Assembly: GCA_964424235.1 (NCBI GenBank)
Contig: CAYRHY010000001.1
Span: 2,830 to 66,829, forward strand
Direction: 5' to 3'
Length of the DNA stretch: 64,000 nt
From: an uncultured Candidatus Saccharibacteria bacterium
GTDB taxonomy: Bacteria; Patescibacteriota; Minisyncoccia; Phycocordibacterales; SBAW01
Of this stretch, positions 36,926-54,398 are shown in pieces (positions within the stretch are counted from its first letter, which is position 1; each line of letters starts with the position of its first letter). Made by a program: the position numbers and the translations under genes. A model generated the notes under the pieces. That model made no database searches and was not told the origin of the DNA. It saw only the letters and a program-made list of their open reading frames with translations.

Positions 36926-38311
36926 TTAATTACTAACCCAATTGATTTGTTGATAGCCGCTTGTTGAAAGTGGGAAATTGGGTGGTGGACTATAGAGTAA
37001 ATTTTTATCGTAGGTGTCATTAGTAATTCCATAACCAGCAGTGGGGTTACCTCCGCTGTCTACCCATGACCACGTCCACTGACCGTACGACATAATAGAA
37101 CCAAAAATAGTGATACTTGTTTTAATATTCCCCGGATAATAGAAAAATTGTGTTGATCCGTTTTGCGCTATGAGCGCAGCATCGATCTCTAGATTGCTCG
37201 GCGCACTGTAGGTGATCACGATATTATTTTGGGCCAATAGTCCCAACACTGAAGATCCATCTTTTGCGGCATAGAGAATATTGTTAGGAATATAAATAGT
37301 AGGAGCACTCCCCACCACATACGGCAACTTAGCCGCAGCGAGCATCACCCGGCCCTGCACCGTACCCTCGACCCACACACTATCTTCAATATAGATAATG
37401 CCATTGCTTGGTATAGTCTGTGTTGAAATCAGGGTGCGCTTCTTATAATCAGTGTCTTCATTATGCGCGACTCCATACACATCCCATCCAGTTGGGTTTG
37501 AGTTGAGACTCGTTACCTTGTATATAGTCACCGTTCCACCACTATTAAACACTAGTGAGTACCCGAGCGCGCTGGATGGCGATAGATAGATGCCGCCGCT
37601 TTGTGCAGCCGCTTTAAAAGTCGAAAGGTTCGCGGTAAGTGCTGAAAAATCGACCGCGGGCACTGGAAATTGCCAAAAGCTTTTTACTGCCGCTGACGCA
37701 CTCCCCCAGACGCCATTTTGTACTGAAGGGCAAGGGGAACCTTGTGATGAGGGGCAGCTATAGGTCGTCTTTGCTGAGGAGATGGGCGCATTGCCTACCC
37801 CATCGAAACGTATACCGTTGTTCGATTGTAATTTACCACTAATAGTTTCACCAGCGCCGATCCATACAATGTCATTACTTAAGAATGAGTATTGCGCGAG
37901 CGATGGGATACCGTACTGCGCAGTAATTGTTCGCTTGTCATTGGGGTTTGCCGTCGTCCAACCAGTAGATTTAATAGTAACAATAGTCGAACCCACGATA
38001 GGTGGCGTGATGGTGAGACTATACTGCCCAATAACCGCACCGGTAGTCAGGTCAGTATACGAATGTACATACGGCCCTGGTGTAGTGGTGCCATCACGAT
38101 AATCGGTTGGAAAGTGTGCGAGGTGCCACTGATAGTAATTAAGACCCGCTTCAGCCACCTGGAATGCTTGTTCGTGATTGATGCGCCCCGGACCCATTTG
38201 TATTTCCTTGCGTACCACATCTAGCAGCGGCACCATCATGAGTGAAAACACGAACAGGAGCATTACCATCCCCACCAACGCATCACCACGCCTATACTGC
38301 CTCGTTCTCAT
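36926..38311 (-). CDS. PilX-like pilus assembly protein (PilX N-terminal domain)
   Basis: 461 aa; hydrophobic N-terminus then QAFQVAEAGLNYYQW typical of PilX_N; last gene of a pilV-pilW-pilX-like arrangement. Confidence 0.5.
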   Translation of the reverse strand: MRTRQYRRGDALVGMVMLLFVFSLMMVPLLDVVRKEIQMGPGRINHEQAFQVAEAGLNYYQWHLAHFPTDYRDGTTTPGPYVHSYTDLTTGAVIGQYSLTITPPIVGSTIVTIKSTGWTTANPNDKRTITAQYGIPSLAQYSFLSNDIVWIGAGETISGKLQSNNGIRFDGVGNAPISSAKTTYSCPSSQGSPCPSVQNGVWGSASAAVKSFWQFPVPAVDFSALTANLSTFKAAAQSGGIYLSPSSALGYSLVFNSGGTVTIYKVTSLNSNPTGWDVYGVAHNEDTDYKKRTLISTQTIPSNGIIYIEDSVWVEGTVQGRVMLAAAKLPYVVGSAPTIYIPNNILYAAKDGSSVLGLLAQNNIVITYSAPSNLEIDAALIAQNGSTQFFYYPGNIKTSITIFGSIMSYGQWTWSWVDSGGNPTAGYGITNDTYDKNLLYSPPPNFPLSTSGYQQINWVSN

Positions 38312-38922
38312 TAATTTCCTAAATTAGTCTTTAAGTTTCGCATCGTCGCACCAGCGGTCATGGTAAATGTAGTGGTTGCCGTACGAGAATCTTTTGTAAA
38401 TACAGTGAGCGCCATCTGCACATACGTCACCTGCGCGATAGATACTGGCTGCGCAAGAGGAAGCGAGGTCGTAGCTCCAACATAATTCCCATCATAGTAC
38501 GTAAAGATGCTCGAGCTAGTAGAGGCAAGAGTCATGAGAGGAGAAATTTTTTCGGATGCAATTGGGTAGGAGGCTGGTGTGCCTATTGGTTTTGTGACCC
38601 CTTTGTAAAGCGTGTTACTTGATATGAAGTACCGGACTCTCAGGGTAGAGCCGTCATAACTACCATAGGGTGTATAAAAAATAATAGCGGAAGAGCTCGC
38701 GAGCGTGAGTGGGTATGACCCGTCACCCGCAGTAGTAGCATCACGAATTTCATTAAGAAACGTATTAGTCACAATACGCGCGGTGTCGATGGTACCGATC
38801 GCGAGCGGCTGCTGTGTGGTCAGAGAAAAAACTTTAGCCACCGTACCCACCACCGTAACCATGAGTAAGAGCCCTATACCCATTGCGACAAGAAACTCTA
38901 TGAGGGTCAGCCCGCGGTTCAT
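38311..38922 (-). CDS. Prepilin-type minor pilin (PilW-like)
   Basis: N-terminal class III signal MNRGLTLIEFLVAMGIGLLLM (GLTLIE cleavage/methylation motif). Confidence 0.65.
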   Translation of the reverse strand: MNRGLTLIEFLVAMGIGLLLMVTVVGTVAKVFSLTTQQPLAIGTIDTARIVTNTFLNEIRDATTAGDGSYPLTLASSSAIIFYTPYGSYDGSTLRVRYFISSNTLYKGVTKPIGTPASYPIASEKISPLMTLASTSSSIFTYYDGNYVGATTSLPLAQPVSIAQVTYVQMALTVFTKDSRTATTTFTMTAGATMRNLKTNLGN

Positions 38923-47819: not shown

Positions 47820-48545
47820 CTACTCGGGCAAAATAAGTTGATACCCACCTCCCTCAATTTTACTTTCTGGTATATGAATTATTTTGGTCCGTGGGTGAAT
47901 CCAGTTCACTAAATTGCCACGGAGCCTGTATATCGAGGTGGTCAAAGTTCGTTCGACTGTTTCAGGGTGTTTGTCTGGCCAGACCACCTTTTTAAGAGTT
48001 GCGGCGGATACACCATCGCAACCTTCTAGTAGTGCAGCGAGTAGCATGAGCGGCTTCTGCTCAATACCTCCAGGGCACTCTCTACCATCAAAAGTTACTC
48101 CGGTCGTAAGCCACTCGAACTGAATAGGCCCAACGACCCACGGCTCGCCAGGGCAAACTTTCGTAGAAATAGTCAACACTTCTTGAAACTCACCAGCGTG
48201 GACAAGTTCTATAAAATAAGCATTAGATCTAAATTCTATAGTTGCTTTCAAATGTCTACTAAGGTCACCGCGAAATCTATGTAAGCAAGTCTGGCAAGCC
48301 CGTTTAGCCTTCTCGCACCGCGAAGCAGGCCACAGCATATCGTGTATACGTTCAAACGGCAATCCTTCATGTTTGTGCAGCAGAAGCAGTCTAAACAAAG
48401 TTGACTCGGTTGATGAAAACGGTGCTACCCTGTCGTTGATTCGAACCTGGTTAAGCTTCTTATATATACGGAACCTACCAACGGGTATACACCAGACACC
48501 ATCAGCTACAGGCAATGACATACCTATCCCAACCATTTGGTCCAT
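47820..48545 (-). CDS. Transcriptional regulator with two OmpR/PhoB-type winged-helix (trans_reg_C-like) domains and no receiver domain
   Basis: 241 aa; STESTLFRLLLLHKHEGLPFERIHDMLWP and MLLAALLEGCDGVSAATLKKVVWPDKHPETVERTLTTSIYRLRGNL both resemble OmpR C-terminal wHTH. Confidence 0.5.
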   Translation of the reverse strand: MDQMVGIGMSLPVADGVWCIPVGRFRIYKKLNQVRINDRVAPFSSTESTLFRLLLLHKHEGLPFERIHDMLWPASRCEKAKRACQTCLHRFRGDLSRHLKATIEFRSNAYFIELVHAGEFQEVLTISTKVCPGEPWVVGPIQFEWLTTGVTFDGRECPGGIEQKPLMLLAALLEGCDGVSAATLKKVVWPDKHPETVERTLTTSIYRLRGNLVNWIHPRTKIIHIPESKIEGGGYQLILPE

Positions 48546-48721: not shown

Positions 48722-49048
48722 TCACGCCTCACTCATTGCTCGGCGAAGCTTCCCAATAAATTCAGTGCCACGTTTGGTCAGCACCGCAATATTGCTGCAT
48801 GGGTTATGGGGATTACGCTTTCGCACCACAATATCCAAAACACGAAGTGCGTCGAGTGCACTCGTTACTCCCGATTGTTGGACACCAACCGCTTTTTCCA
48901 GAGCACCGACAGTGGGTGGCTTTTCACAAGCGCAGCAGGCCAAGAACACTCCGAGGTGCCTGAGTGTTAGATGTGTACTCTCCTTCTCCCTCACAACACA
49001 CAACACTACATTACGAAGCATGCGAAGTCTTGCATCTTCATCCATCAC
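48722..49048 (-). CDS. MarR-family winged-helix transcriptional regulator
   Basis: 108 aa; LTLRHLGVFLACCACEKPPTVGALEKAVGVQQSGVTSALDALRVLDIVVRKRNPHN. Confidence 0.55.
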   Translation of the reverse strand: MMDEDARLRMLRNVVLCVVREKESTHLTLRHLGVFLACCACEKPPTVGALEKAVGVQQSGVTSALDALRVLDIVVRKRNPHNPCSNIAVLTKRGTEFIGKLRRAMSEA

Positions 49049-49832: not shown

Positions 49833-49904
49833 GCCCTCGTCGTTCAATGGATAGGACGCATCCTTGCGGAGGATGTAATGTGGGTTCGATTCCTGCCGAG
49901 GGCA
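49833..49904 (+). tRNA. tRNA-Arg-like element (anticodon GCG), possibly degenerate
   Basis: GCCCTCG TC GTTC AATGGATA GGAC G CATCC TTGCGGA GGATG TAAT GTGGG TTCGATT CCTGC CGAGGGC A; perfect acceptor and anticodon stems but T-stem has two G·U pairs and the GCG anticodon is unusual. Confidence 0.5.
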
Positions 49905-49993
49905 CTTGTGTAACAAGTGACCGAGCCTGGCGCCCCTTCGTAGCTTTAGCGAAGTGGGGCCGAGGACACTTGAAAGTAGAAAGGGTCTTAAAC

Positions 49994-50018
49994 AAAAATC
50001 CGCCCTAGGCGGATTTTT
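49994..50018 (+). terminator. Palindromic terminator AAAAATCCGCC-CTA-GGCGGATTTTT
   Basis: 11-bp stem flanked by A-run and T-run; downstream of the tRNA-like element on + and near the dinG 3' region on -. Confidence 0.4.
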
Positions 50019-50029
50019 GTTATTTATAA

Positions 50030-50073
50030 TGTTTTATTTATATAAAAATGACGGGTGGATTTCTCCACCCGTC
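50030..50073 (-). terminator. Rho-independent terminator of the dinG-like gene
   Basis: 10-bp stem GACGGGTGGA/TCCACCCGTC (50050-50073) followed on the minus strand by AUUUUUAUAUAAAUAAAAC. Confidence 0.5.
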
Positions 50074-50147
50074 CCGTACTGCGCATTACCGTTCCTGAGT
50101 CAAGTAAACCATACTGCTACTTACCAGGGGGCGCAGAGCCCAACCGT

Positions 50148-51932
50148 TTAGCCCAACAACTTCAGTGCATCACCCTCACACTGCGCGAAGGTCAGGTCAC
50201 CACGGTACGCAGGACGCAACCACTCAGGCAGAGATGCGAAGGCGAAACGCCGGAACTGTTGTGAGATAAGGAAGGTAACCCCGATGTCCGTTTCCGAACG
50301 GATATTCCGCCCACGAACCTGAAGCAGGTCCAGCATCACGCGCCAATTCCACAGCGACCACCGACGGCGACCGAAGCGCCTCTCCTCAAAACCTGCTTGC
50401 GGGTCCGTTGGATTAGGATAACCTGGCCGGAAGCTGAAGATGATCGGAGCAATCTGCTTCGGTAGATCGATACCCTCACCATAGTTAGCGACAGTACCGA
50501 CCAAACAGTCTCCTTCGCCACAGCGGAAGCGCGTTGCGCACTGCCGGGGTGTATGCCCTTTACCATAGGAAATTGCATTAAGCCCTTCCTCGGCCGCAAG
50601 CATGAGGAAATTTTCCCGCTCATCGTTTGAAACTACGATGATAAGCGAGCGATGCCCCTTGTTAGCGAACCGCTTCGCACTCCGAGCAATGAGACGTAGC
50701 ATGCGGGTTTTATCCCGTTTCTGTCGTCCTTTCACCGAAAGATCTGCGGTATCGGTAGGTAGGTAGATGCGCGCGTTCTTGGCGGGGAATGTTGACGGTA
50801 TCGAATGATACGCACCCTTGCTCCCCGTCTCGAACGCAAATACATCTGGGTCGCTTATAGTTGCCGAGTACGCCAGTGTACGCTTGGGGAGCAGCCTGCG
50901 GATAATGGGGACAACGTAGTAGTCCCTCACTACAACGCGATACTGCACCCGTTCCCGCTCACCCATCTCCGTCTTGCCATATGCTATGACGAAGGAGAGA
51001 GGGTAGCCACGTTCAGTCGCGCCCGTGAGAGCGTATTTCAACGCGTGACGAAACCGACGCACGCTTCGCGCGATTTCCTCCAACTGCTTGAGGACTTCAC
51101 GGTCATCGTCCGCATCAAGGTCGCCGCTGCGCAACGCTTTGCGGGTATCAGCTTCGAGCGCTTCAGGGTTAACATTGCTAAGTACGTCATAAAGCCGTTG
51201 CACGTCGTCTTCTTCCAACAGTGTCTCTTGGTCCATTGCGCGGCGTTTGACAAGACTCTTCATGCGCTTGAGGAATTCCCCTAGCGTGTGACACTGCCCT
51301 GAGCCCACAGCGTTGAGTGCCTCGATACCCTTGGCAAGCTTCCAGTCGGTGAGCTCCGTTGAGAGTACTAAGCGGATGGACTGTGCCAACCGATGTGCTT
51401 CGTCTATGACCACCCCTTGCGGTTCGAATTCTTGCGAGAACAAAACCACGAAGAGGTAGAAAGCGCTGGTGCACACCACGATGCCAGTGCTTTGCTTTGC
51501 TTCGTACTTTTGTCGAAGGTACGGGCATGGCAAAGTGCCAACAGTGTGCGTCTCACCGGTCTCCTGATCCACCCGATGTGGGCAGTCAGCGAGTATTGAA
51601 CACGGGATCTCGTCTGCCTTCAACTCTTGGCCGGGGTAGTAGAGACACGGATACTCGTTACGACCGTACACAACGCTCACATCTGGATGCAGGACCTTCA
51701 CCTGCTCAGCGAGAGTTTTGTTTGGCACGACATAGAACAGGCCGTGTTTACCCAGCCGCCCGAGAGCGGTGAGGTAGGTGTAGCCAATCGCGGTCTTGCC
51801 GCTCCCTGTTGGAAGTTCTAGCACAACGACGCCATCTTCCCTGCGGAGAATGGTGAGCGCTGTGATCTGCGCATCCTTCATGGAAGGATACCGATCGATA
51901 GGGAATGACCCAATCAGATCGAGATGTTGCAT
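50148..51932 (-). CDS. dinG: Rad3/XPD-type DinG-like ATP-dependent helicase with Fe-S cluster domain
   Basis: Walker A ELPTGSGKTAIG, four-Cys Fe-S insert (YPCLYYPGQELKADEIPCSILADCPHRV...LPCPY), DEAH box VIDEAHRL, C-terminal helicase motifs; start set at MQHLDLIG with GGAGAAA SD 8 nt upstream (ORF extends to 52046). Confidence 0.8.
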   Translation of the reverse strand: MQHLDLIGSFPIDRYPSMKDAQITALTILRREDGVVVLELPTGSGKTAIGYTYLTALGRLGKHGLFYVVPNKTLAEQVKVLHPDVSVVYGRNEYPCLYYPGQELKADEIPCSILADCPHRVDQETGETHTVGTLPCPYLRQKYEAKQSTGIVVCTSAFYLFVVLFSQEFEPQGVVIDEAHRLAQSIRLVLSTELTDWKLAKGIEALNAVGSGQCHTLGEFLKRMKSLVKRRAMDQETLLEEDDVQRLYDVLSNVNPEALEADTRKALRSGDLDADDDREVLKQLEEIARSVRRFRHALKYALTGATERGYPLSFVIAYGKTEMGERERVQYRVVVRDYYVVPIIRRLLPKRTLAYSATISDPDVFAFETGSKGAYHSIPSTFPAKNARIYLPTDTADLSVKGRQKRDKTRMLRLIARSAKRFANKGHRSLIIVVSNDERENFLMLAAEEGLNAISYGKGHTPRQCATRFRCGEGDCLVGTVANYGEGIDLPKQIAPIIFSFRPGYPNPTDPQAGFEERRFGRRRWSLWNWRVMLDLLQVRGRNIRSETDIGVTFLISQQFRRFAFASLPEWLRPAYRGDLTFAQCEGDALKLLG

Positions 51933-51950
51933 GGTCTGATTTCTCCAAGG

Positions 51951-51992
51951 TGTTGTAGAAAAAGTAGCGAGCGAGACAAATGTCTCGCTCGC
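51951..51992 (-). terminator. Strong hairpin plus U-run between hammerhead A and dinG start (terminator/attenuator candidate)
   Basis: 12-bp stem GCGAGCGAGACA/TGTCTCGCTCGC followed on the minus strand by UACUUUUUCUACAACA, ~20 nt before the dinG SD. Confidence 0.4.
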
Positions 51993-52057
51993 TCCGGACA
52001 CAACGCGAGTGGGCATTAGTGCACCTAATACTGGCCTACTGCACACTTATTAAAGAA

Positions 52058-52112
52058 CTCCCGATTTCGTCCTTTCGGACTCATCAGCCGCGACACACAT
52101 CGCGATATCGGG
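52058..52112 (-). ncRNA. Hammerhead ribozyme, type III (HHR-A)
   Basis: Minus strand: CCCGAU-A|UCGCGA-UGUGUG-UCGCGG-CUGAUGA-GUCC-GAAA-GGAC-GAAA-UCGGGAG. Complete core (C3U4G5A6U7G8A9, G10.1:C11.1, G12A13A14, A15.1:U16.1, H17=A); helices I, II and III all paired. Confidence 0.75.
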
Positions 52113-52203
52113 GTTGTCGGAGAGTCCCGAAGGACTCTCCAGACCCTAACAGTACATGACTGAACACTACCAGAACGCAGATTACTCAGCAGAACAGGAT
52201 TGG

Positions 52204-52560
52204 TTACTCAGAGAAATTTGATTCCCACCGCTCACTGATTTCAACCATAAGGCGTTGGGCAGCTTGTTGACTCTTTGTTGTAATTTGCATTTGCTGAGCT
52301 GCATTGCGAGCTACAAGTACAAGAAAAATTCGTTTACCTGGAATATAGCCAATAGCCCGTGGTGTTAAGGCAGCAGCGCCTGTAAAAATCTTTCCAAACG
52401 CTACCATTGTCACATCTGGGTTATCAACCAACCAATTAGCTAATGGGAGCGCTGCGGTAATAACTGTCCTGTGTTTGTATATCTTTTTATGGCTACACAC
52501 ATGAATGGCGTGCGCACCACGGTACTGATCGTCATTCTTTAGTGGCATCTTACACTCCAT
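52204..52560 (-). CDS. Hypothetical small protein (118 aa) embedded in the structured-RNA array between HHR-B and HHR-A
   Basis: MECKMPLKNDDQYRGAHAIHVCSHKK...; ATG immediately 3' of hairpin 52574-52599; no family recognised; coding status uncertain. Confidence 0.35.
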   Translation of the reverse strand: MECKMPLKNDDQYRGAHAIHVCSHKKIYKHRTVITAALPLANWLVDNPDVTMVAFGKIFTGAAALTPRAIGYIPGKRIFLVLVARNAAQQMQITTKSQQAAQRLMVEISERWESNFSE

Positions 52561-52667
52561 TTAGACAAAGAGTGTTGGGGAGTCTTAAGACTCCCCAACC
52601 CAGACCAGACTGCACGCCACTACACCTTGCGTTTCCTGACGATACGAGAAAAGCGACATCAAAGATC

Positions 52668-52723
52668 ATCTCGATTTCGCCCTTTTGGGCTCATCAGGCC
52701 GGACACACATCCGACTATCGAAA
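52668..52723 (-). ncRNA. Hammerhead ribozyme, type III (HHR-B)
   Basis: Minus strand: UUUCGAU-A|GUCGGA-UGUGUG-UCCGGC-CUGAUGA-GCCC-AAAA-GGGC-GAAA-UCGAGAU. Same core as HHR-A with compensatory changes in helices I (GUCGGA/UCCGGC), II (GCCC/GGGC) and III. Confidence 0.75.
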
Positions 52724-52811
52724 TGTCGGAGAGCACGAAAGCTCTCCGACCCACACGCTACAAGACTGTAGTCCGCAAAAGCGCACCGCGACGCACTCAA
52801 CATTAAAGGTA

Positions 52812-52864
52812 CTTCTGTTTCATCCTTTCGGAATCATCAGGCCGGACACACATCCGACTACAGA
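52812..52864 (-). ncRNA. Hammerhead ribozyme, type III (HHR-C), possibly weakened (U10.1·U11.1)
   Basis: Minus strand: UCUGU-A|GUCGGA-UGUGUG-UCCGGC-CUGAUGA-UUCC-GAAA-GGAU-GAAA-CAGAAG. Full core, but helix II opens with a U·U; helix I identical to HHR-B. Confidence 0.6.
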
Positions 52865-53370
52865 GGCAGAGAAATTTCCCTGCCACACTTACTTAAAAGA
52901 ACGAAGGGATTGGTGGGTGAAGTTTCCAACACCCACCCCAAACTGGGCCAAACGCAACTTAAGTCTACTTAGGCCAACAGAATCAGTTGTCGAGAGACAT
53001 CACGTCTCTCGACCCAAACAGTACCCTAGACTGCTCTAGCAGGCGGGAGCGAGGTGGACTGAGCCCTTCAGTAGTGAACTGCATTAGGTTGTCGGGAGAT
53101 AAAGATTCCCGACCCGAACCGGTCCTGACGCGAGCACACTGTTGTCTGCGCTTGCAATATTGAACCTTTCAGCAACAGCTGTCGGGAAGCCTTACGGCTC
53201 CCCAACCCATAGACCTGCATAACGAAGGGGACGCTGCTGAGCCCTTCTGTACTGGAGCAAACGACTCCTCGGTGCAAAAGTTTGTCGGAGAACTCAGAAA
53301 AGTCCTCCCATCTGAACCGCGGCATTTAGCTCCAGACCACTCGGCACAAAGCCGAGGAAAGCCTGACAGC

Positions 53371-54057
53371 TTAGGCCGCCAGCTTCACCTGCTGCTCCAT
53401 CTCGATGAAGTCAGTCACCCGGAACCGGCCGAACGGGCCGCGCTTACTGGGACGGAAATCTCCGAGACCGGAAAAGCGTCCGGCCGCATTGAACAGCTCC
53501 TGCACCTTCTCGATGGCGATCTGGTCGTGGTCAACCTCGATCGTGACGTCGAATGCCCAGGTCGGGAACTTTGGCCGCACGATGGCGACCGCCGCCCCGT
53601 TTGCTGCCAGCACGCCGCGACGCTTGTCGGCAATCCACTTCACCTCCGACTGGTTGAGGAACGGGATGAACCCGTCGCCCTTGTCGTCGATGAGGTCCGA
53701 CACAATCGAAAGGAATGCCGGTACCAGCGAGGATTCGCGTGTGGACACCTTGGTCTTCTTGTCGAAGATTATGTGCCGACCAGCATCCACGAGTGCAGCA
53801 AACAAATAGTTGGCTGGGAAGCCGAACTCTTTATTTGGTCCGAGACACAGCTTTTCCTTAGCCATGTCTTCTATTGACTGCTCCTTGGGCGGCTTACGCT
53901 TGCCCGCCGAGCCGTAGATCAACTCGTCCAACACTGCGTCGGTCATGGGGTTCTGCAGCATGGGCGAGATGCCCGCGCAGCTTACCAAGTACGTGCCGAT
54001 GCCGCTCTTCACGCTGGACTTCTGGTTGCTATTTGCCGAAGCTAGGGACTTGGCCAT
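53371..54057 (-). CDS. Hypothetical protein (228 aa) with glycine-rich C-terminal loop, first gene of the island
   Basis: Strong SD GGAGG 5 nt before ATG; sequence ...AGRFSGLGDFRPSKRGPFGRFRVTDF near the C-terminus resembles the G-rich loops of RAMP-type RNA-binding proteins. Resemblance only; no confident family. Confidence 0.55.
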   Translation of the reverse strand: MAKSLASANSNQKSSVKSGIGTYLVSCAGISPMLQNPMTDAVLDELIYGSAGKRKPPKEQSIEDMAKEKLCLGPNKEFGFPANYLFAALVDAGRHIIFDKKTKVSTRESSLVPAFLSIVSDLIDDKGDGFIPFLNQSEVKWIADKRRGVLAANGAAVAIVRPKFPTWAFDVTIEVDHDQIAIEKVQELFNAAGRFSGLGDFRPSKRGPFGRFRVTDFIEMEQQVKLAA

Positions 54058-54100
54058 ATGGCCCTCCGTAGGTTAGTTGTTACCGGAACAGCCAAAACAG

Positions 54101-54117
54101 GCCTCCGAAAAGGAGGC
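54101..54117 (-). terminator. Hairpin GCCTCC-GAAAA-GGAGGC between rpsT and the 228-aa gene (rpsT terminator candidate; -35/-10-like TTGACA...TATAGC just upstream on the minus strand)
   Basis: 6-bp GC stem with U-tracts on both sides; minus-strand TTGACA-N15-TATAGC precedes it. Confidence 0.35.
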
Positions 54118-54155
54118 TATATTAAAATTTGTTTTTTGTCAATAAATGTGTCGCT

Positions 54156-54398
54156 TTACGCCTTAAGGAGTTTGGCGATCTTTGCCTTGCGGCGAGCGGC
54201 GGTATTCTTCTTTATAATGCCGCGTTTGAGCGCCTTATCGATCGCCTTGTAGGCAGCGCTCAGTGCCACCTTGTCGCCCTTAGGAGCGAGGCGTGCTGTC
54301 TTGGTTGCTGCGCGCACAGCCTGCTTACGCACTTGATTCATAGTGCGCTTGCGCAGTGACTGGCGGTGAGCCTTTTTTGCACCTTTGGTAATTGCCAT
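54156..54398 (-). CDS. rpsT: 30S ribosomal protein S20
   Basis: 80 aa, Lys/Ala/Arg-rich MAITKGAKKAHRQSLRKRTMNQVRKQAVRAATK... typical S20. Confidence 0.85.
   Translation of the reverse strand: MAITKGAKKAHRQSLRKRTMNQVRKQAVRAATKTARLAPKGDKVALSAAYKAIDKALKRGIIKKNTAARRKAKIAKLLKA

What the first reader, a model, noticed from the sequence alone, without database searches (positions are those of the whole stretch)
49905..54155. 4.2 kb island: DinG-like Fe-S helicase + ribozyme/hairpin RNA array + 228-aa G-rich-loop protein, bounded by a tRNA-like element and rpsT; candidate undescribed RNA-based system
Between a tRNA-Arg-like element (49833-49904) and rpsT lies a co-oriented minus-strand block. It reads: a 228-aa protein with a strong SD and a C-terminal G-rich loop, then the 1.3 kb structured-RNA array with three hammerheads, then a strong hairpin/U-run attenuator, then a Rad3/XPD-type DinG-like helicase gene with its own terminator. 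Local GC looks a few percent above the flanks. A DinG helicase next to a repeat-like RNA array and a small protein with a RAMP-like G-rich loop is reminiscent of, but clearly different from, type IV CRISPR-Cas modules (csf4/DinG + Cas6/Cas7 + array). Here the repeats are non-identical structured RNAs and processing would be autocatalytic (hammerheads) rather than Cas6-dependent. This could be a defence or mobile-element-derived module in which ribozyme-processed structured RNAs work with a helicase. Or it could just be a housekeeping DinG placed next to a phage-like HHR-processed transcript. Both readings are unproven.
Basis: partly seen in the sequence, partly recalled or inferred. Interest (0 to 1): 0.85.

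Follow-up and report, generated by a model that had tools for sequence, protein, structure and literature searches.

The report
Ribozyme-processed VIPR guide-RNA system with helicase
This island is a chromosomal copy, in a tiny "candidate phyla radiation" bacterium, of the recently described VIPR system, a CRISPR-like and possibly pre-CRISPR RNA-guided DNA-recognition machine; here it has eight guide RNAs, three self-cleaving hammerhead ribozymes, and an XPD/DinG-type helicase as accessory enzyme.

Summary
The best label is now a known one: a VIPR system (bioRxiv 10.64898/2026.04.26.720920 and .720927, 2026).

- **Vipr protein.** A profile of the 228-aa protein's family matches the solved SUSP1 Vipr over its full length (E=1.1e-10). 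Its model has a Cas7/Csm3-like RAMP fold. The G-loop (D-F-R-P) and thumb (R-P) residues are conserved.
- **Guide RNAs.** The "RNA array" holds eight vrRNA-like genes, seven between vipr and the helicase and one after it. Each has 8-12 pentanucleotide repeats (NN-N-S-Y, a relaxed GGY/NN code) followed by GG plus a hairpin tail.
- **Ribozymes and a missed gene.** There are three canonical type III hammerheads.
- **Helicase.** It is XPD/Rad3-like, with four invariant Fe-S cysteines. It sits next to vipr in about 24 Patescibacteria loci, but in none of 31 viral Vipr loci.
- **Targets.** No convincing target was found. One borderline self-match lies in a pilin-like gene.

Verdict: a new member of a known, very recent kind. 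The helicase-linked, ribozyme-processed subtype has no functional characterisation in the text I could read.

The parts
53371..54057 (-). vipr: 228-aa Vipr protein (ancestral RAMP, Cas7-like). G-loop G197-L-G-D200-F201-R202-P203; thumb R161-P162.
   Evidence: A family profile matches SUSP1 Vipr (PDB 36pp_D) at E=1.1e-10 over the full length. The AF2 model has pLDDT 87.4. Foldseek top hits are Csm3 and type VII Cas7, E about 1e-6. Viral RAMP-like proteins match at E=7e-11. phrog_4652 matches at E=3.6e-14. 88 homologues were found.
53181..53270 (-). vrRNA a: about 12 pentanucleotide units, then GG and an 11-bp hairpin tail (53206-53181).
   Evidence: Register analysis; S-Y score 7 of 10.
53091..53157 (-). 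vrRNA b: about 8 units, then GG and a 7-bp hairpin tail (53113-53091). This is the weakest copy.
52989..53077 (-). vrRNA c: 12 units, 11 of them S-Y, then GG and an 11-bp hairpin tail (53013-52989).
   Evidence: S-Y score 10 of 10.
52912..52986 (-). vrRNA d: about 9 units, then GG and an 8-bp hairpin tail (52937-52912).
52806..52870 (-). Hammerhead 1 (type III). Predicted cleavage is 3' of A52859. Helix II closes with a U-U instead of the usual G-C.
   Evidence: Rfam RF00008 gives 34.1 bits, below the 48.5 cut-off. Local model R1 gives 79.9 bits. Covariation is shown.
52725..52809 (-). vrRNA e: about 11 units, then GG and a 10-bp hairpin tail (52750-52725).
   Evidence: The fold centroid keeps the tail hairpin and hammerhead helices I and II.
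52663..52727 (-). Hammerhead 2 (type III). Predicted cleavage is 3' of A52716, 9 nt after the tail of vrRNA e.
   Evidence: R1 gives 75.7 bits; canonical core and helices.
52574..52653 (-). vrRNA f: about 10 units, then GG and an 11-bp hairpin tail (52599-52574).
52204..52548 (-). Conserved 114-aa accessory ORF embedded in the array (start MPL..., GGAG Shine-Dalgarno). Function unknown.
52116..52203 (-). vrRNA g: about 11 units, then GG and a bulged hairpin tail (52144-52116).
52053..52117 (-). Hammerhead 3 (type III). Predicted cleavage is 3' of A52106, 10 nt after the tail of vrRNA g.
   Evidence: R1 gives 73.4 bits.
51966..51993 (-). 12-bp hairpin followed by ACUUUUUCU, between hammerhead 3 and the helicase start. 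It looks like a terminator or attenuator.
   Evidence: (I4). It is absent at the equivalent place in L004.
50148..51932 (-). Accessory XPD/Rad3/DinG-family helicase, 594 aa from ATG 51932 (GGAG Shine-Dalgarno). It has a 4-Cys Fe-S module (C96, C111, C117, C136), Walker A GxGKT and DExH.
   Evidence: Pfam Helicase_C_2 and DEAD. PADLOC typeIV_DinG PDLC01439, E=4.4e-32. phrog_2488, E=2.5e-39. Cysteines and motifs are invariant. Best PDB relatives are XPD, Ta0057 and FANCJ at E about 1e-15; E. coli DinG scores 2.7e-7.
50050..50127 (-). vrRNA h: about 10 units, then GG and a 10-bp hairpin tail (50073-50050), downstream of the helicase.
   Evidence: S-Y score 8 of 10. Most relatives also carry units after the helicase.
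49991..50021 (.). 14-bp palindromic hairpin flanked by A and T runs. It looks like a bidirectional terminator that closes the operon.
   Evidence: (I2).

Best explanation
The block 49991-54057 (minus strand) is a VIPR (Viral Interference Programmable Repeat) system resident in the chromosome of a Patescibacteria/Paceibacteria-type bacterium.

**Shown here**
- It encodes a Vipr protein, an ancestral RAMP homologous to the structurally solved SUSP1 Vipr.
- It encodes eight vrRNA genes. Each has 8-12 five-nucleotide repeats, followed by GG and a covarying hairpin tail. In each repeat two or three positions are free and two are constrained (S then Y, a relaxed form of GGY).
- It contains three type III hammerhead ribozymes, a conserved 114-aa protein and an XPD/DinG-family Fe-S helicase.

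**Inferred from the published VIPR mechanism and from the anatomy**
1. The operon is transcribed as one or a few long minus-strand precursors.
2. The hammerheads cut 9-10 nt (hammerheads 2 and 3) or 52 nt (hammerhead 1) downstream of a tail. This sets the 3' ends of vrRNAs d, e and g.
3. In the two relatives examined in detail (L004 and L081), a hammerhead sits just upstream of both the small ORF and the helicase gene. In the window this holds for hammerhead 3 before the helicase, while hammerhead 2 lies one vrRNA upstream of the small ORF. Cleavage would therefore also separate the guide array from the downstream mRNAs.
4. One Vipr protomer binds per repeat and forms a helical filament. It flips out the constrained bases and presents the variable dinucleotides.
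5. The filament reads double-stranded DNA through gapped pairing (NN, skip 1, NN ...), forming an R-loop or triplex over roughly 25-35 bp.
6. The helicase is then recruited to the displaced strand and unwinds or strips the target. This would resemble CasDinG in type IV-A CRISPR and would silence or block replication of an invading phage or plasmid. This step is the least certain.
For: **Vipr identity**
- The single sequence hits PDB 36pp_D 'SUSP1 Vipr protein'. The family profile gives E=1.1e-10 over residues 3-189 of 202.
- D200-F201-R202-P203 and R161-P162 align with SUSP1 D177-W178-R179-P and R138-P. Those residues bind G1, G2 and Y3 according to 10.64898/2026.04.26.720927. They are invariant or nearly so in 53 homologues.
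- The fold matches Csm3 and type VII Cas7 and viral RAMP-like proteins.

**vrRNAs**
- 287 GG-hairpins in arrays from 29 loci show a strict 5-nt period for about 11 units upstream. One position is G/C with A at most 7%. The next is T/C with G at most 10%.
- All seven window tails between vipr and the helicase sit in that register, and an eighth unit lies after the helicase.
- In the whole 64-kb window only six GG-hairpins score at least 7 of 10 S-Y units, and all lie within 50073-53206 on the minus strand. The null probability is 0.004 per site.
- Across the genome-collection loci, 212 such units lie on the vipr strand (17 on the opposite strand, mostly where the helicase is inverted), almost all of them in the arrays beside vipr or the helicase.
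- The preprint lists YNNNG-type repeats and hammerhead-interspersed arrays as known variants.

**Hammerheads**
- The structure is 93.6% paired and 13 of 17 pairs show compensatory changes. Slid controls give 34-47% paired.
- Model hits occur only inside arrays.

**Helicase linkage**
- The helicase is adjacent to vipr in 23 of 29 Patescibacteria-type genome loci (most of the rest are too short to tell), plus one gammaproteobacterial-labelled locus (L044) and L081.
- It is absent next to 31 viral Vipr relatives.

**Guide turnover**
- A genome whose Vipr is 72% identical has the same architecture but entirely different variable dinucleotides.
Against: - No RNA or biochemical data exist for this locus or, in the text I could read, for this subtype.
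- The repeat consensus is relaxed: G1 is G in only about one third of units and G2 is G or C. The published 1-nt-skip rule may therefore not apply unchanged.
- No convincing natural target was found. Seven exact gapped-pattern scans of viral contigs gave no hit for the 20-base patterns and one chance-level hit for an 18-base pattern.
- One metagenome scan gave a single hit, in a thiolase gene of a high-GC contig. The skipped base falls on codon position 1, and I estimate that about 0.1-0.3 such hits are expected by chance.
- Hammerhead 1 has a U-U where the G10.1-C11.1 pair normally sits.
- How vrRNAs a-d, which have no ribozyme between them, are separated is unknown.
- The helicase's role is inferred only from conserved adjacency and by analogy.
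Confidence: 0.85

Rival explanations
1. The VIPR components are genuine, but the system has been domesticated for endogenous gene regulation (RNA-guided repression of the bacterium's own genes) rather than for defence against mobile elements.
For: - The locus sits among housekeeping genes (rpsT, ruvA, mur ligase, ruvX, tRNAs). L006, whose Vipr is only 42% identical, has it in the same neighbourhood.
- No phage genes lie nearby, and no external target was found.
- vrRNA d matches window 38355-38381, inside a prepilin-type gene, at 16 of 18 variable positions. None of 1500 unit-order shuffles and 5 of 1500 letter shuffles reach that score.
Against: - After correction for eight guides the match is borderline (about 0.03). 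It has two mismatches, does not extend into the 5' units, and the skipped base is codon position 2.
- The other seven guides have no self-match above their shuffled controls.
- The preprint found no self-targets at 80% or more on source contigs.
- Guide content turns over completely between related genomes, which fits an arms race better than fixed regulation.
- L081 carries the island in a different genomic context.
Confidence: 0.1
2. A divergent type IV CRISPR-Cas module: a Csf4/DinG helicase plus a Cas7-like Csf2, with a degenerate array.
For: - The best defence-library model for the helicase is PADLOC 'typeIV_DinG' PDLC01439, E=4.4e-32 over the full length.
- The small protein has a Cas7-like fold.
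- The logic is the same: a RAMP filament plus a helicase and no nuclease.
Against: - There are no direct repeats of CRISPR type.
- The 228-aa protein hits no PADLOC or NCBIfam Cas model at E up to 1.
- No Cas5, Cas6 or Cas8-like genes are present.
- The NCBIfam Csf4 model scores 23 bits against a cut-off of 400.
- No chain named as CasDinG or Csf4 appears among the helicase profile's PDB hits, which are led by XPD.
- The protein is sequence-homologous to Vipr.
Confidence: 0.03
3. Chance adjacency: a housekeeping DinG/XPD repair helicase placed next to an unrelated, phage-derived, hammerhead-processed transcript and a hypothetical protein.
For: - The helicase has all the motifs of a functional XPD/DinG repair helicase.
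- The surrounding genes are housekeeping genes.
Against: - The triad of Vipr, array and helicase recurs in about 24 independent loci, with Vipr identity down to about 37%.
- Arrays flank the helicase on both sides and lie on its strand even where it is inverted relative to vipr (L009 and L021).
- Housekeeping DinG and YoaA models score only 20-29 bits against cut-offs near 600 or higher.
Confidence: 0.02

Closest known systems
VIPR systems (Vipr protein plus vrRNA plus vap genes). Sources: bioRxiv 10.64898/2026.04.26.720920 and 10.64898/2026.04.26.720927; solved SUSP1 Vipr, PDB 36pp.
   Same: - The protein is a small single-RRM RAMP with G-loop and thumb, homologous in sequence to SUSP1 Vipr.
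- The guide RNAs are built of about 10 pentanucleotide repeats followed by a structured 3' tail, and several guides are arranged in arrays beside the genes.
- The locus is minimal, with no CRISPR repeats and no adaptation genes.
- Hammerhead-interspersed arrays and helicase-type accessory genes are both mentioned for some types.
   Different: - The characterised systems (type II, SUSP1 and P. fulva) are phage or prophage encoded, use strict GGY/NN repeats and a pseudoknot tail, and have DNA-binding accessory proteins.
- This locus is chromosomal, in a Patescibacteria genome.
- Its repeat is relaxed to NN-N-S-Y and its tail is a simple GG-hairpin.
- Only 3 of 8 guides are followed by a ribozyme.
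- The accessory genes are an XPD/DinG Fe-S helicase and a 114-aa protein of unknown fold class.
- I could not tell which of the seven published types it belongs to. The figures and data tables are not held as text.
Type IV-A CRISPR-Cas (Csf complex plus CasDinG/Csf4).
   Same: - A RAMP filament on a guide RNA is paired with a DinG-family helicase rather than a nuclease.
- From established knowledge of type IV-A, the outcome is interference by binding and unwinding, not cleavage. A PADLOC type-IV DinG model is the best defence-library hit.
   Different: - There is no CRISPR array, Cas6, Cas5 or Cas8-like subunit.
- Guides are repeat-coded, not contiguous spacers.
- Processing is by ribozymes.
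- The helicase keeps four Fe-S cysteines and its profile sits closer to XPD than to any other solved helicase.
- The Csf4 equivalog model is far below its cut-off.
Type III hammerhead ribozymes (Rfam RF00008).
   Same: - The CUGAUGA and GAAA cores, three helices with helix III open, and H17 = A or C are all present.
- Covariation is seen in all three helices.
   Different: - All three window copies score below Rfam's gathering cut-off.
- They serve as processing signals inside a guide-RNA operon, immediately 3' of vrRNA tails.
- In L004 and L081 one sits directly before each accessory gene.
Csm3/Cas7 of type III-A and Cas7 of type VII CRISPR effectors.
   Same: They are the nearest solved folds: Foldseek E about 1e-6, probability 1.0, TM 0.45-0.5.
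   Different: Sequence identity is 8-15%. No sequence-level match to Cas7 families was found. The protein is smaller and simpler, and it lacks any CRISPR context.

Membership tests
VIPR system | Vipr protein: RAMP fold with an RRM core, a glycine-rich loop and a thumb. | tested here: met
   The AF2 model has pLDDT 87.4. Its top folds are Csm3 and Cas7. The G-loop GLGDFRP and the R161-P162 thumb motif are conserved in 53 homologues.
VIPR system | Sequence homology to an experimentally characterised Vipr. | tested here: met
   A family profile against PDB sequences hits only SUSP1 Vipr 36pp_D, at E=1.1e-10 over the full length. The single sequence gives E=1.1e-3.
VIPR system | vrRNA: at least 4 tandem pentanucleotide repeats (YNNGG or a related consensus such as YNNNG) followed by a conserved 3' tail. 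| tested here: met
   Eight units of 8-12 repeats precede GG-hairpin tails. The family-wide 5-nt periodicity appears in 287 units. The consensus is relaxed: G1 is weak and G2 is G or C. The preprint lists that class.
VIPR system | Minimal locus with an accessory (vap) gene and without a CRISPR array or cas genes. | tested here: met
   There are no CRISPR-type repeats and no Cas hits apart from helicase models. The helicase adjacency is conserved.
VIPR system | vrRNAs are expressed, are processed and co-purify with Vipr; the complex binds DNA by the 1-nt-skip code. | not testable with these tools
   This needs small-RNA sequencing, pull-down and binding assays.
VIPR system | Guides match natural targets, usually mobile elements. 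| tested here: inconclusive
   Exact gapped-pattern scans gave only chance-level hits. One borderline self-match was found. An approximate search at 80% or more, as used in the preprint, could not be run on the collections.
VIPR type (I-VII) | Placement in the published Vipr phylogeny together with the vap cluster. | not testable with these tools
   The figures and data S4 are not held. The text says only that types III-V carry nucleases or helicases, and that the ribozyme-array examples come from types I and V.
Type IV CRISPR-Cas | CRISPR array of near-identical direct repeats with spacers. | tested here: not met
   The repeat finder and TRF find none.
Type IV CRISPR-Cas | Csf1, Csf2 (Cas7), Csf3 (Cas5) and Cas6-family proteins. 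| tested here: not met
   The 228-aa and 114-aa proteins give no PADLOC or NCBIfam hit at E up to 1.
Type IV CRISPR-Cas | Csf4/CasDinG helicase. | tested here: inconclusive
   PADLOC PDLC01439 gives E=4.4e-32. However, TIGR03117 scores 23 bits against a cut-off of 400. No chain named as CasDinG or Csf4 appears among the PDB profile hits, which are led by XPD.
Hammerhead ribozyme, type III | Conserved catalytic core, three helices around it with helix III open, and a cleavage-site triplet. | tested here: met
   CUGAUGA and GAAA are invariant. Of 17 pairs, 93.6% of cells are paired and 13 pairs show compensatory changes.
Hammerhead ribozyme, type III | Score at or above the Rfam gathering cut-off. 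| tested here: not met
   34.1, 23 and 17.8 bits against cut-offs of 48.5-52. The local model gives 73-80 bits.
Hammerhead ribozyme, type III | Self-cleavage. | not testable with these tools
   This needs in vitro transcription and cleavage.
XPD/Rad3/DinG (SF2 Fe-S) helicases | Helicase motifs plus a four-cysteine Fe-S module between motifs Ia and II. | tested here: met
   GxGKT, DExH, the QxxGRxxR motif and four invariant cysteines are present. Pfam Helicase_C_2 scores 50.6 against a cut-off of 25.3. XPD matches at E about 1e-15.

The most novel reading that the evidence does not exclude
The Patescibacteria helicase-linked clade may be a host-domesticated VIPR lineage with a relaxed repeat code (NN-N-S-Y, with N36 aligned to the G1-reading His17 of SUSP1). 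Its pairing rule may differ from the published NN/skip-1 rule. Its XPD-like Fe-S helicase would convert simple binding into active unwinding. Some guides may act on the cell's own genes, for example the prepilin-type gene at 38311-38922, or on the DNA of the host bacterium on which these episymbionts live, rather than on phages.
Probability: 0.12. Interest if true: 0.8.

Novelty: new member of a known kind. Interest (0 to 1): 0.5.

Why it matters
VIPR has been proposed as the ancestor of CRISPR RAMP effectors and as a minimal programmable DNA-binding platform. In the text I could read, functional assays cover only the phage type II systems with DNA-binding accessory proteins; types III and V have small-RNA sequencing only.

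This locus is a compact 4.1-kb, fully delimited example of a different arrangement:

- it is chromosomal and lies in an ultra-small episymbiotic bacterium;
- its guides are released by hammerhead ribozymes instead of a Cas6-like nuclease;
- it is coupled to an XPD/DinG Fe-S helicase.

That arrangement parallels type IV-A CRISPR (RAMP filament plus DinG). It could therefore show how an RNA-guided binder acquired an enzymatic effector.

The analysis yields concrete, testable objects:

- eight guide sequences and three predicted cleavage sites;
- the conserved contact residues;
- a second small accessory protein;
- about 25 related loci, and more than 200 natural guide sequences from the genome-collection loci, from which the pairing rule of the relaxed code could be learned.

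Tried and rejected
1. **Rfam at gathering cut-off.** It found only tRNAs in the window. The hammerheads appear only below the cut-off, so I built a local model instead.
2. **Library searches for the 228-aa protein.** Pfam, NCBIfam and PADLOC gave nothing. The lead came from a weak PDB sequence hit.
3. **Local target search.** All 287 guides were scanned against all fetched DNA under skip rules 0-3. There was no enrichment over shuffled guides; only the guides' own loci appeared under skip 3.
4. **Collection scans with gapped patterns.**
   - The six 20-base patterns found nothing in viral contigs.
   - An 18-base pattern hit a DNA ligase gene in a 154-kb viral contig. The match does not extend and is at chance level.
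   - A 22-base pattern hit a thiolase gene in a high-GC metagenome contig, judged to be chance.
5. **Linking the homologues to the preprint's UniProt seed proteins.** The listing of cluster members returned no UniProt accessions. The afdb50 library was unavailable, and the paper's supplements are not held. The VIPR type therefore stays unassigned.
6. **Exact look-up of the 114-aa protein's contig.** It was not on record.
8. **Sigma-70 promoter scan.** It gave nothing above the shuffled expectation. A TTGACA-N15-TATAGC element just upstream of vipr (about 54140-54114) can be seen by eye but was not scored.
9. **Integration at the tRNA.** I considered and rejected an island recently integrated at the tRNA. 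No integrase or direct repeats are present, and the same neighbourhood recurs in L006. However, L081 has other flanks.

Full report
**1. What is in the sequence**

Between a genuine tRNA-Arg(GCG) (49833-49905, plus strand) and rpsT (54156-54398, minus strand; Ribosomal_S20p) lies a block of co-oriented minus-strand features. In order of transcription they are:

- A 228-aa ORF (53371-54057) with a GGAGG ribosome-binding site.
- A stretch of about 1.3 kb that scores as non-coding, apart from one conserved small ORF.
- A hairpin followed by a U-run (51993-51966).
- An XPD/DinG-type helicase gene. ORF-listing runs it from GTG 52046. Homologues align only from about residue 39, a GGAG precedes ATG 51932, and the orthologue called in L081 is 594 aa, so the start is most likely 51932.

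The surrounding genes are housekeeping genes: ruvA, a Mur ligase, a SpoU methylase, ruvX and a tRNA-binding protein. GC content is only modestly raised in the island.

**2. The small protein is a Vipr**

Pfam, NCBIfam and PADLOC give nothing for it. PHROGs gives one family of unknown function.

A sequence search of PDB chains hit 'SUSP1 Vipr protein' (36pp_D) over the C-terminal G-rich loop. That led to two 2026 preprints describing VIPR systems.

With a profile of 53 homologues, the match to SUSP1 Vipr becomes full-length at E=1.1e-10, with no other credible PDB hit.

The AlphaFold model (pLDDT 87.4) is closest to Csm3 (the Cas7 of type III-A) and to type VII Cas7, at E about 1e-6 and TM 0.45-0.5. 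It also matches three viral proteins of about 200 aa, one of them annotated as a RAMP superfamily protein, at E from 7e-11 to 2e-7.

The structural preprint names the residues that read the repeat: G-loop D177, W178 and R179, and thumb R138. They align with D200, F201, R202 and R161 here, which are invariant or nearly invariant in the family. The G1-reading His17 of SUSP1 aligns with a conserved Asn36.

**3. The 'RNA array' is an array of vrRNA genes**

VIPR guide RNAs consist of 9-16 pentanucleotide repeats (GGY/NN, with variants such as YNNNG) followed by a structured 3' tail.

A period-5 scan of the intergenic region found runs of 6-11 units just upstream of each hairpin.

To test this independently of the window, I fetched 47 loci encoding relatives from a genome collection. 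I collected every 'GG + hairpin' downstream of vipr and outside the coding hits, and tabulated the 65 nt upstream. The 287 sequences show a strict 5-nt period over about 11 units:

- One position is G or C, with A at most 7%.
- The next position is T or C, with G at most 10%.
- The position before these is weakly G-enriched.
- The remaining two positions have near-uniform composition.

All seven window tails between vipr and the helicase sit in exactly this register. An eighth unit lies downstream of the helicase (first stem base 50073).

In the entire 64-kb window, only six GG-hairpins have at least 7 of 10 S-Y units. All six lie at 50073-53206 on the minus strand, and the per-site null probability is 0.004. 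Units b and g fall just below these strict filters.

Across the genome-collection loci, 212 such units lie on the vipr strand and 17 on the opposite strand, mostly where the helicase is inverted. Almost all lie beside vipr or the helicase, and the non-Patescibacteria relatives have essentially none of this tail type.

No CRISPR-type repeats are present.

**4. The hammerheads are real**

Rfam scores the three copies below its gathering cut-off.

Twelve copies from the window and five relatives align with invariant CUGAUGA and GAAA cores. For the type III structure, 93.6% of cells are paired and 13 of 17 pairs show compensatory changes. Slid controls give 34-47% paired.

The covariance model finds the three window copies at 73-80 bits and 23 more in relatives (L001-L006, L010 and L012). 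Every hit lies inside an array on the vipr strand. There are none elsewhere in 676 kb and none in 330 kb of viral loci.

Predicted cleavage is 3' of A52859, A52716 and A52106. That is 52, 9 and 10 nt after the tails of vrRNAs d, e and g. Hammerhead 1 has a U-U where G10.1-C11.1 normally sits.

In L004 and L081 a hammerhead lies immediately upstream of both the small ORF and the helicase gene. In the window this holds for hammerhead 3 before the helicase, while hammerhead 2 lies one vrRNA upstream of the small ORF. The ribozymes would therefore also sever the guide array from the downstream mRNAs.

L010 carries nine hammerheads, about one per guide. The window carries three for eight guides. 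How vrRNAs a-d are separated is unexplained.

**5. The helicase and the small ORF belong to the system**

tblastn finds the helicase within a few kb of vipr in 23 of 29 Patescibacteria-type genome loci. Most of the remainder are too short to tell. It is also present in one gammaproteobacterial-labelled locus (L044) and in L081. It usually lies downstream on the same strand with an array in between, and most loci have a second array after it. None of 31 viral Vipr relatives has it.

It carries Walker A, DExH and motif VI, and four cysteines that are invariant in 15-23 homologues. Its profile is closest to XPD, archaeal XPD (Ta0057), FANCJ and CHL1 (E about 1e-15). E. coli DinG scores 2.7e-7. 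No chain named as CasDinG or Csf4 appears among the hits, which are led by XPD.

A PADLOC 'typeIV_DinG' model is nevertheless the best defence-library hit (E=4.4e-32). The curated Csf4, DinG and YoaA models are far below their cut-offs.

The 114-aa ORF (52204-52548) has homologues in L002-L006 and L081. They lie either inside the array or after the helicase. A profile search found 19 relatives. Its confident model has no informative structural neighbour.

**6. Context and evolution**

The closest relatives are all Patescibacteria or Paceibacteria MAGs.

- L006 (Vipr 42% identical) carries the system in the same neighbourhood: mur, ruvA and rpsT on one side, and the membrane protein, ruvX and the tRNA-binding protein on the other.
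- L007 has a truncated vipr and three units there but no helicase, which looks like a decaying copy.
- L081 (Vipr 72% identical) has the same architecture with different flanks and completely different variable dinucleotides.

This pattern fits a long-resident chromosomal system whose guides turn over.

**7. Targets**

Using the published rule (NN, skip one), I ran three kinds of search:

- A local scan of all guides against all fetched DNA showed no enrichment.
- Seven exact scans of viral contigs and one of metagenomes gave only two hits, both at chance level.
- Within the window, vrRNA d matches 38355-38381 at 16 of 18 positions. The site lies in a gene with a prepilin N-terminal methylation motif. 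None of 1500 unit-order shuffles and 5 of 1500 letter shuffles reach that score.

After correction for eight guides the self-match is borderline, and the skipped base is not the wobble position. I record it as a lead, not a finding.

**8. Mechanism**

Shown here are the parts list, their homology, the repeat code, the ribozyme structure and the conserved linkage.

Inferred from the preprints: Vipr polymerises with one protomer per repeat, flips out the constrained bases, presents the variable dinucleotides, and binds double-stranded DNA through gapped pairing.

Inferred from the anatomy: the ribozymes define the guide 3' ends and separate guides from mRNAs. The hairpin plus U-run before the helicase may limit helicase expression.

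Inferred by analogy with type IV-A CRISPR (my own knowledge, not tested here): the helicase acts on the R-loop to extend interference.

**9. Verdict**

This is a new member of the VIPR class, in a helicase-linked, hammerhead-processed, relaxed-code subtype. Its published type number I could not determine.

Interest is moderate. It is not surprising to someone who has read the 2026 preprints. It is still a well-delimited entry point to an accessory-enzyme branch of VIPR for which the text I could read reports no functional characterisation.

Noticed in passing
window 38355-38381 (+), inside ORF 38311-38922 (-): Under the NN/skip-1 rule, vrRNA d matches this site at 16 of 18 variable positions. 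None of 1500 unit-order shuffles and 5 of 1500 letter shuffles reach that score. The gene has a prepilin N-terminal methylation motif (N_methyl 21.0 bits, just under the 21.2 cut-off). This could be a self or regulatory target, or chance.
   Followed up: partly
L007 8001-8408 and flanks: A relative in the same neighbourhood as the window (membrane protein, ruvX, tRNA-binding protein) has a vipr matching only residues 2-137. It has three vrRNA-like units and no helicase within 8 kb. It looks like a decaying copy of the system.
   Followed up: no
L005 9899-11716: The helicase homologue in this locus translates with two in-frame stop codons over the tblastn range. It may be a pseudogene, a frameshifted alignment or an assembly error.
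   Followed up: no
L010 4650-6850: This array has nine hammerheads for about eleven guides, nearly one ribozyme per vrRNA. The window has three for eight. The density of ribozymes in these arrays varies widely between relatives.
   Followed up: partly
L009, L019, L021, L024: In four loci the helicase lies upstream of vipr on the opposite strand. In three of them (L009, L019, L021) the vrRNA-like units that were detected nearly all lie on the helicase's strand; L024 has only one unit, on the vipr strand. This suggests the arrays are transcribed with the helicase rather than with vipr.
   Followed up: partly
window 54140-54101 (-): A TTGACA-N15-TATAGC element overlaps the rpsT terminator-like hairpin (54117-54101), just upstream of vipr. 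It may be the operon's own promoter. The consensus scan did not score it.
   Followed up: no
window 47820-48545 (-) and 48722-49048 (-): Two small regulator-like genes lie just beyond the tRNA side of the island. One has two weak Trans_reg_C winged-helix matches and the other is MarR/ArsR-like. No link to the system was seen in relatives.
   Followed up: no
L044 4932-8576: A contig labelled 'uncultured Gammaproteobacteria' carries a Vipr (32% identical) and a helicase 48% identical to the window's. It is the only non-Patescibacteria-labelled locus with this helicase. It may reflect horizontal transfer or a mis-binned contig.
   Followed up: no
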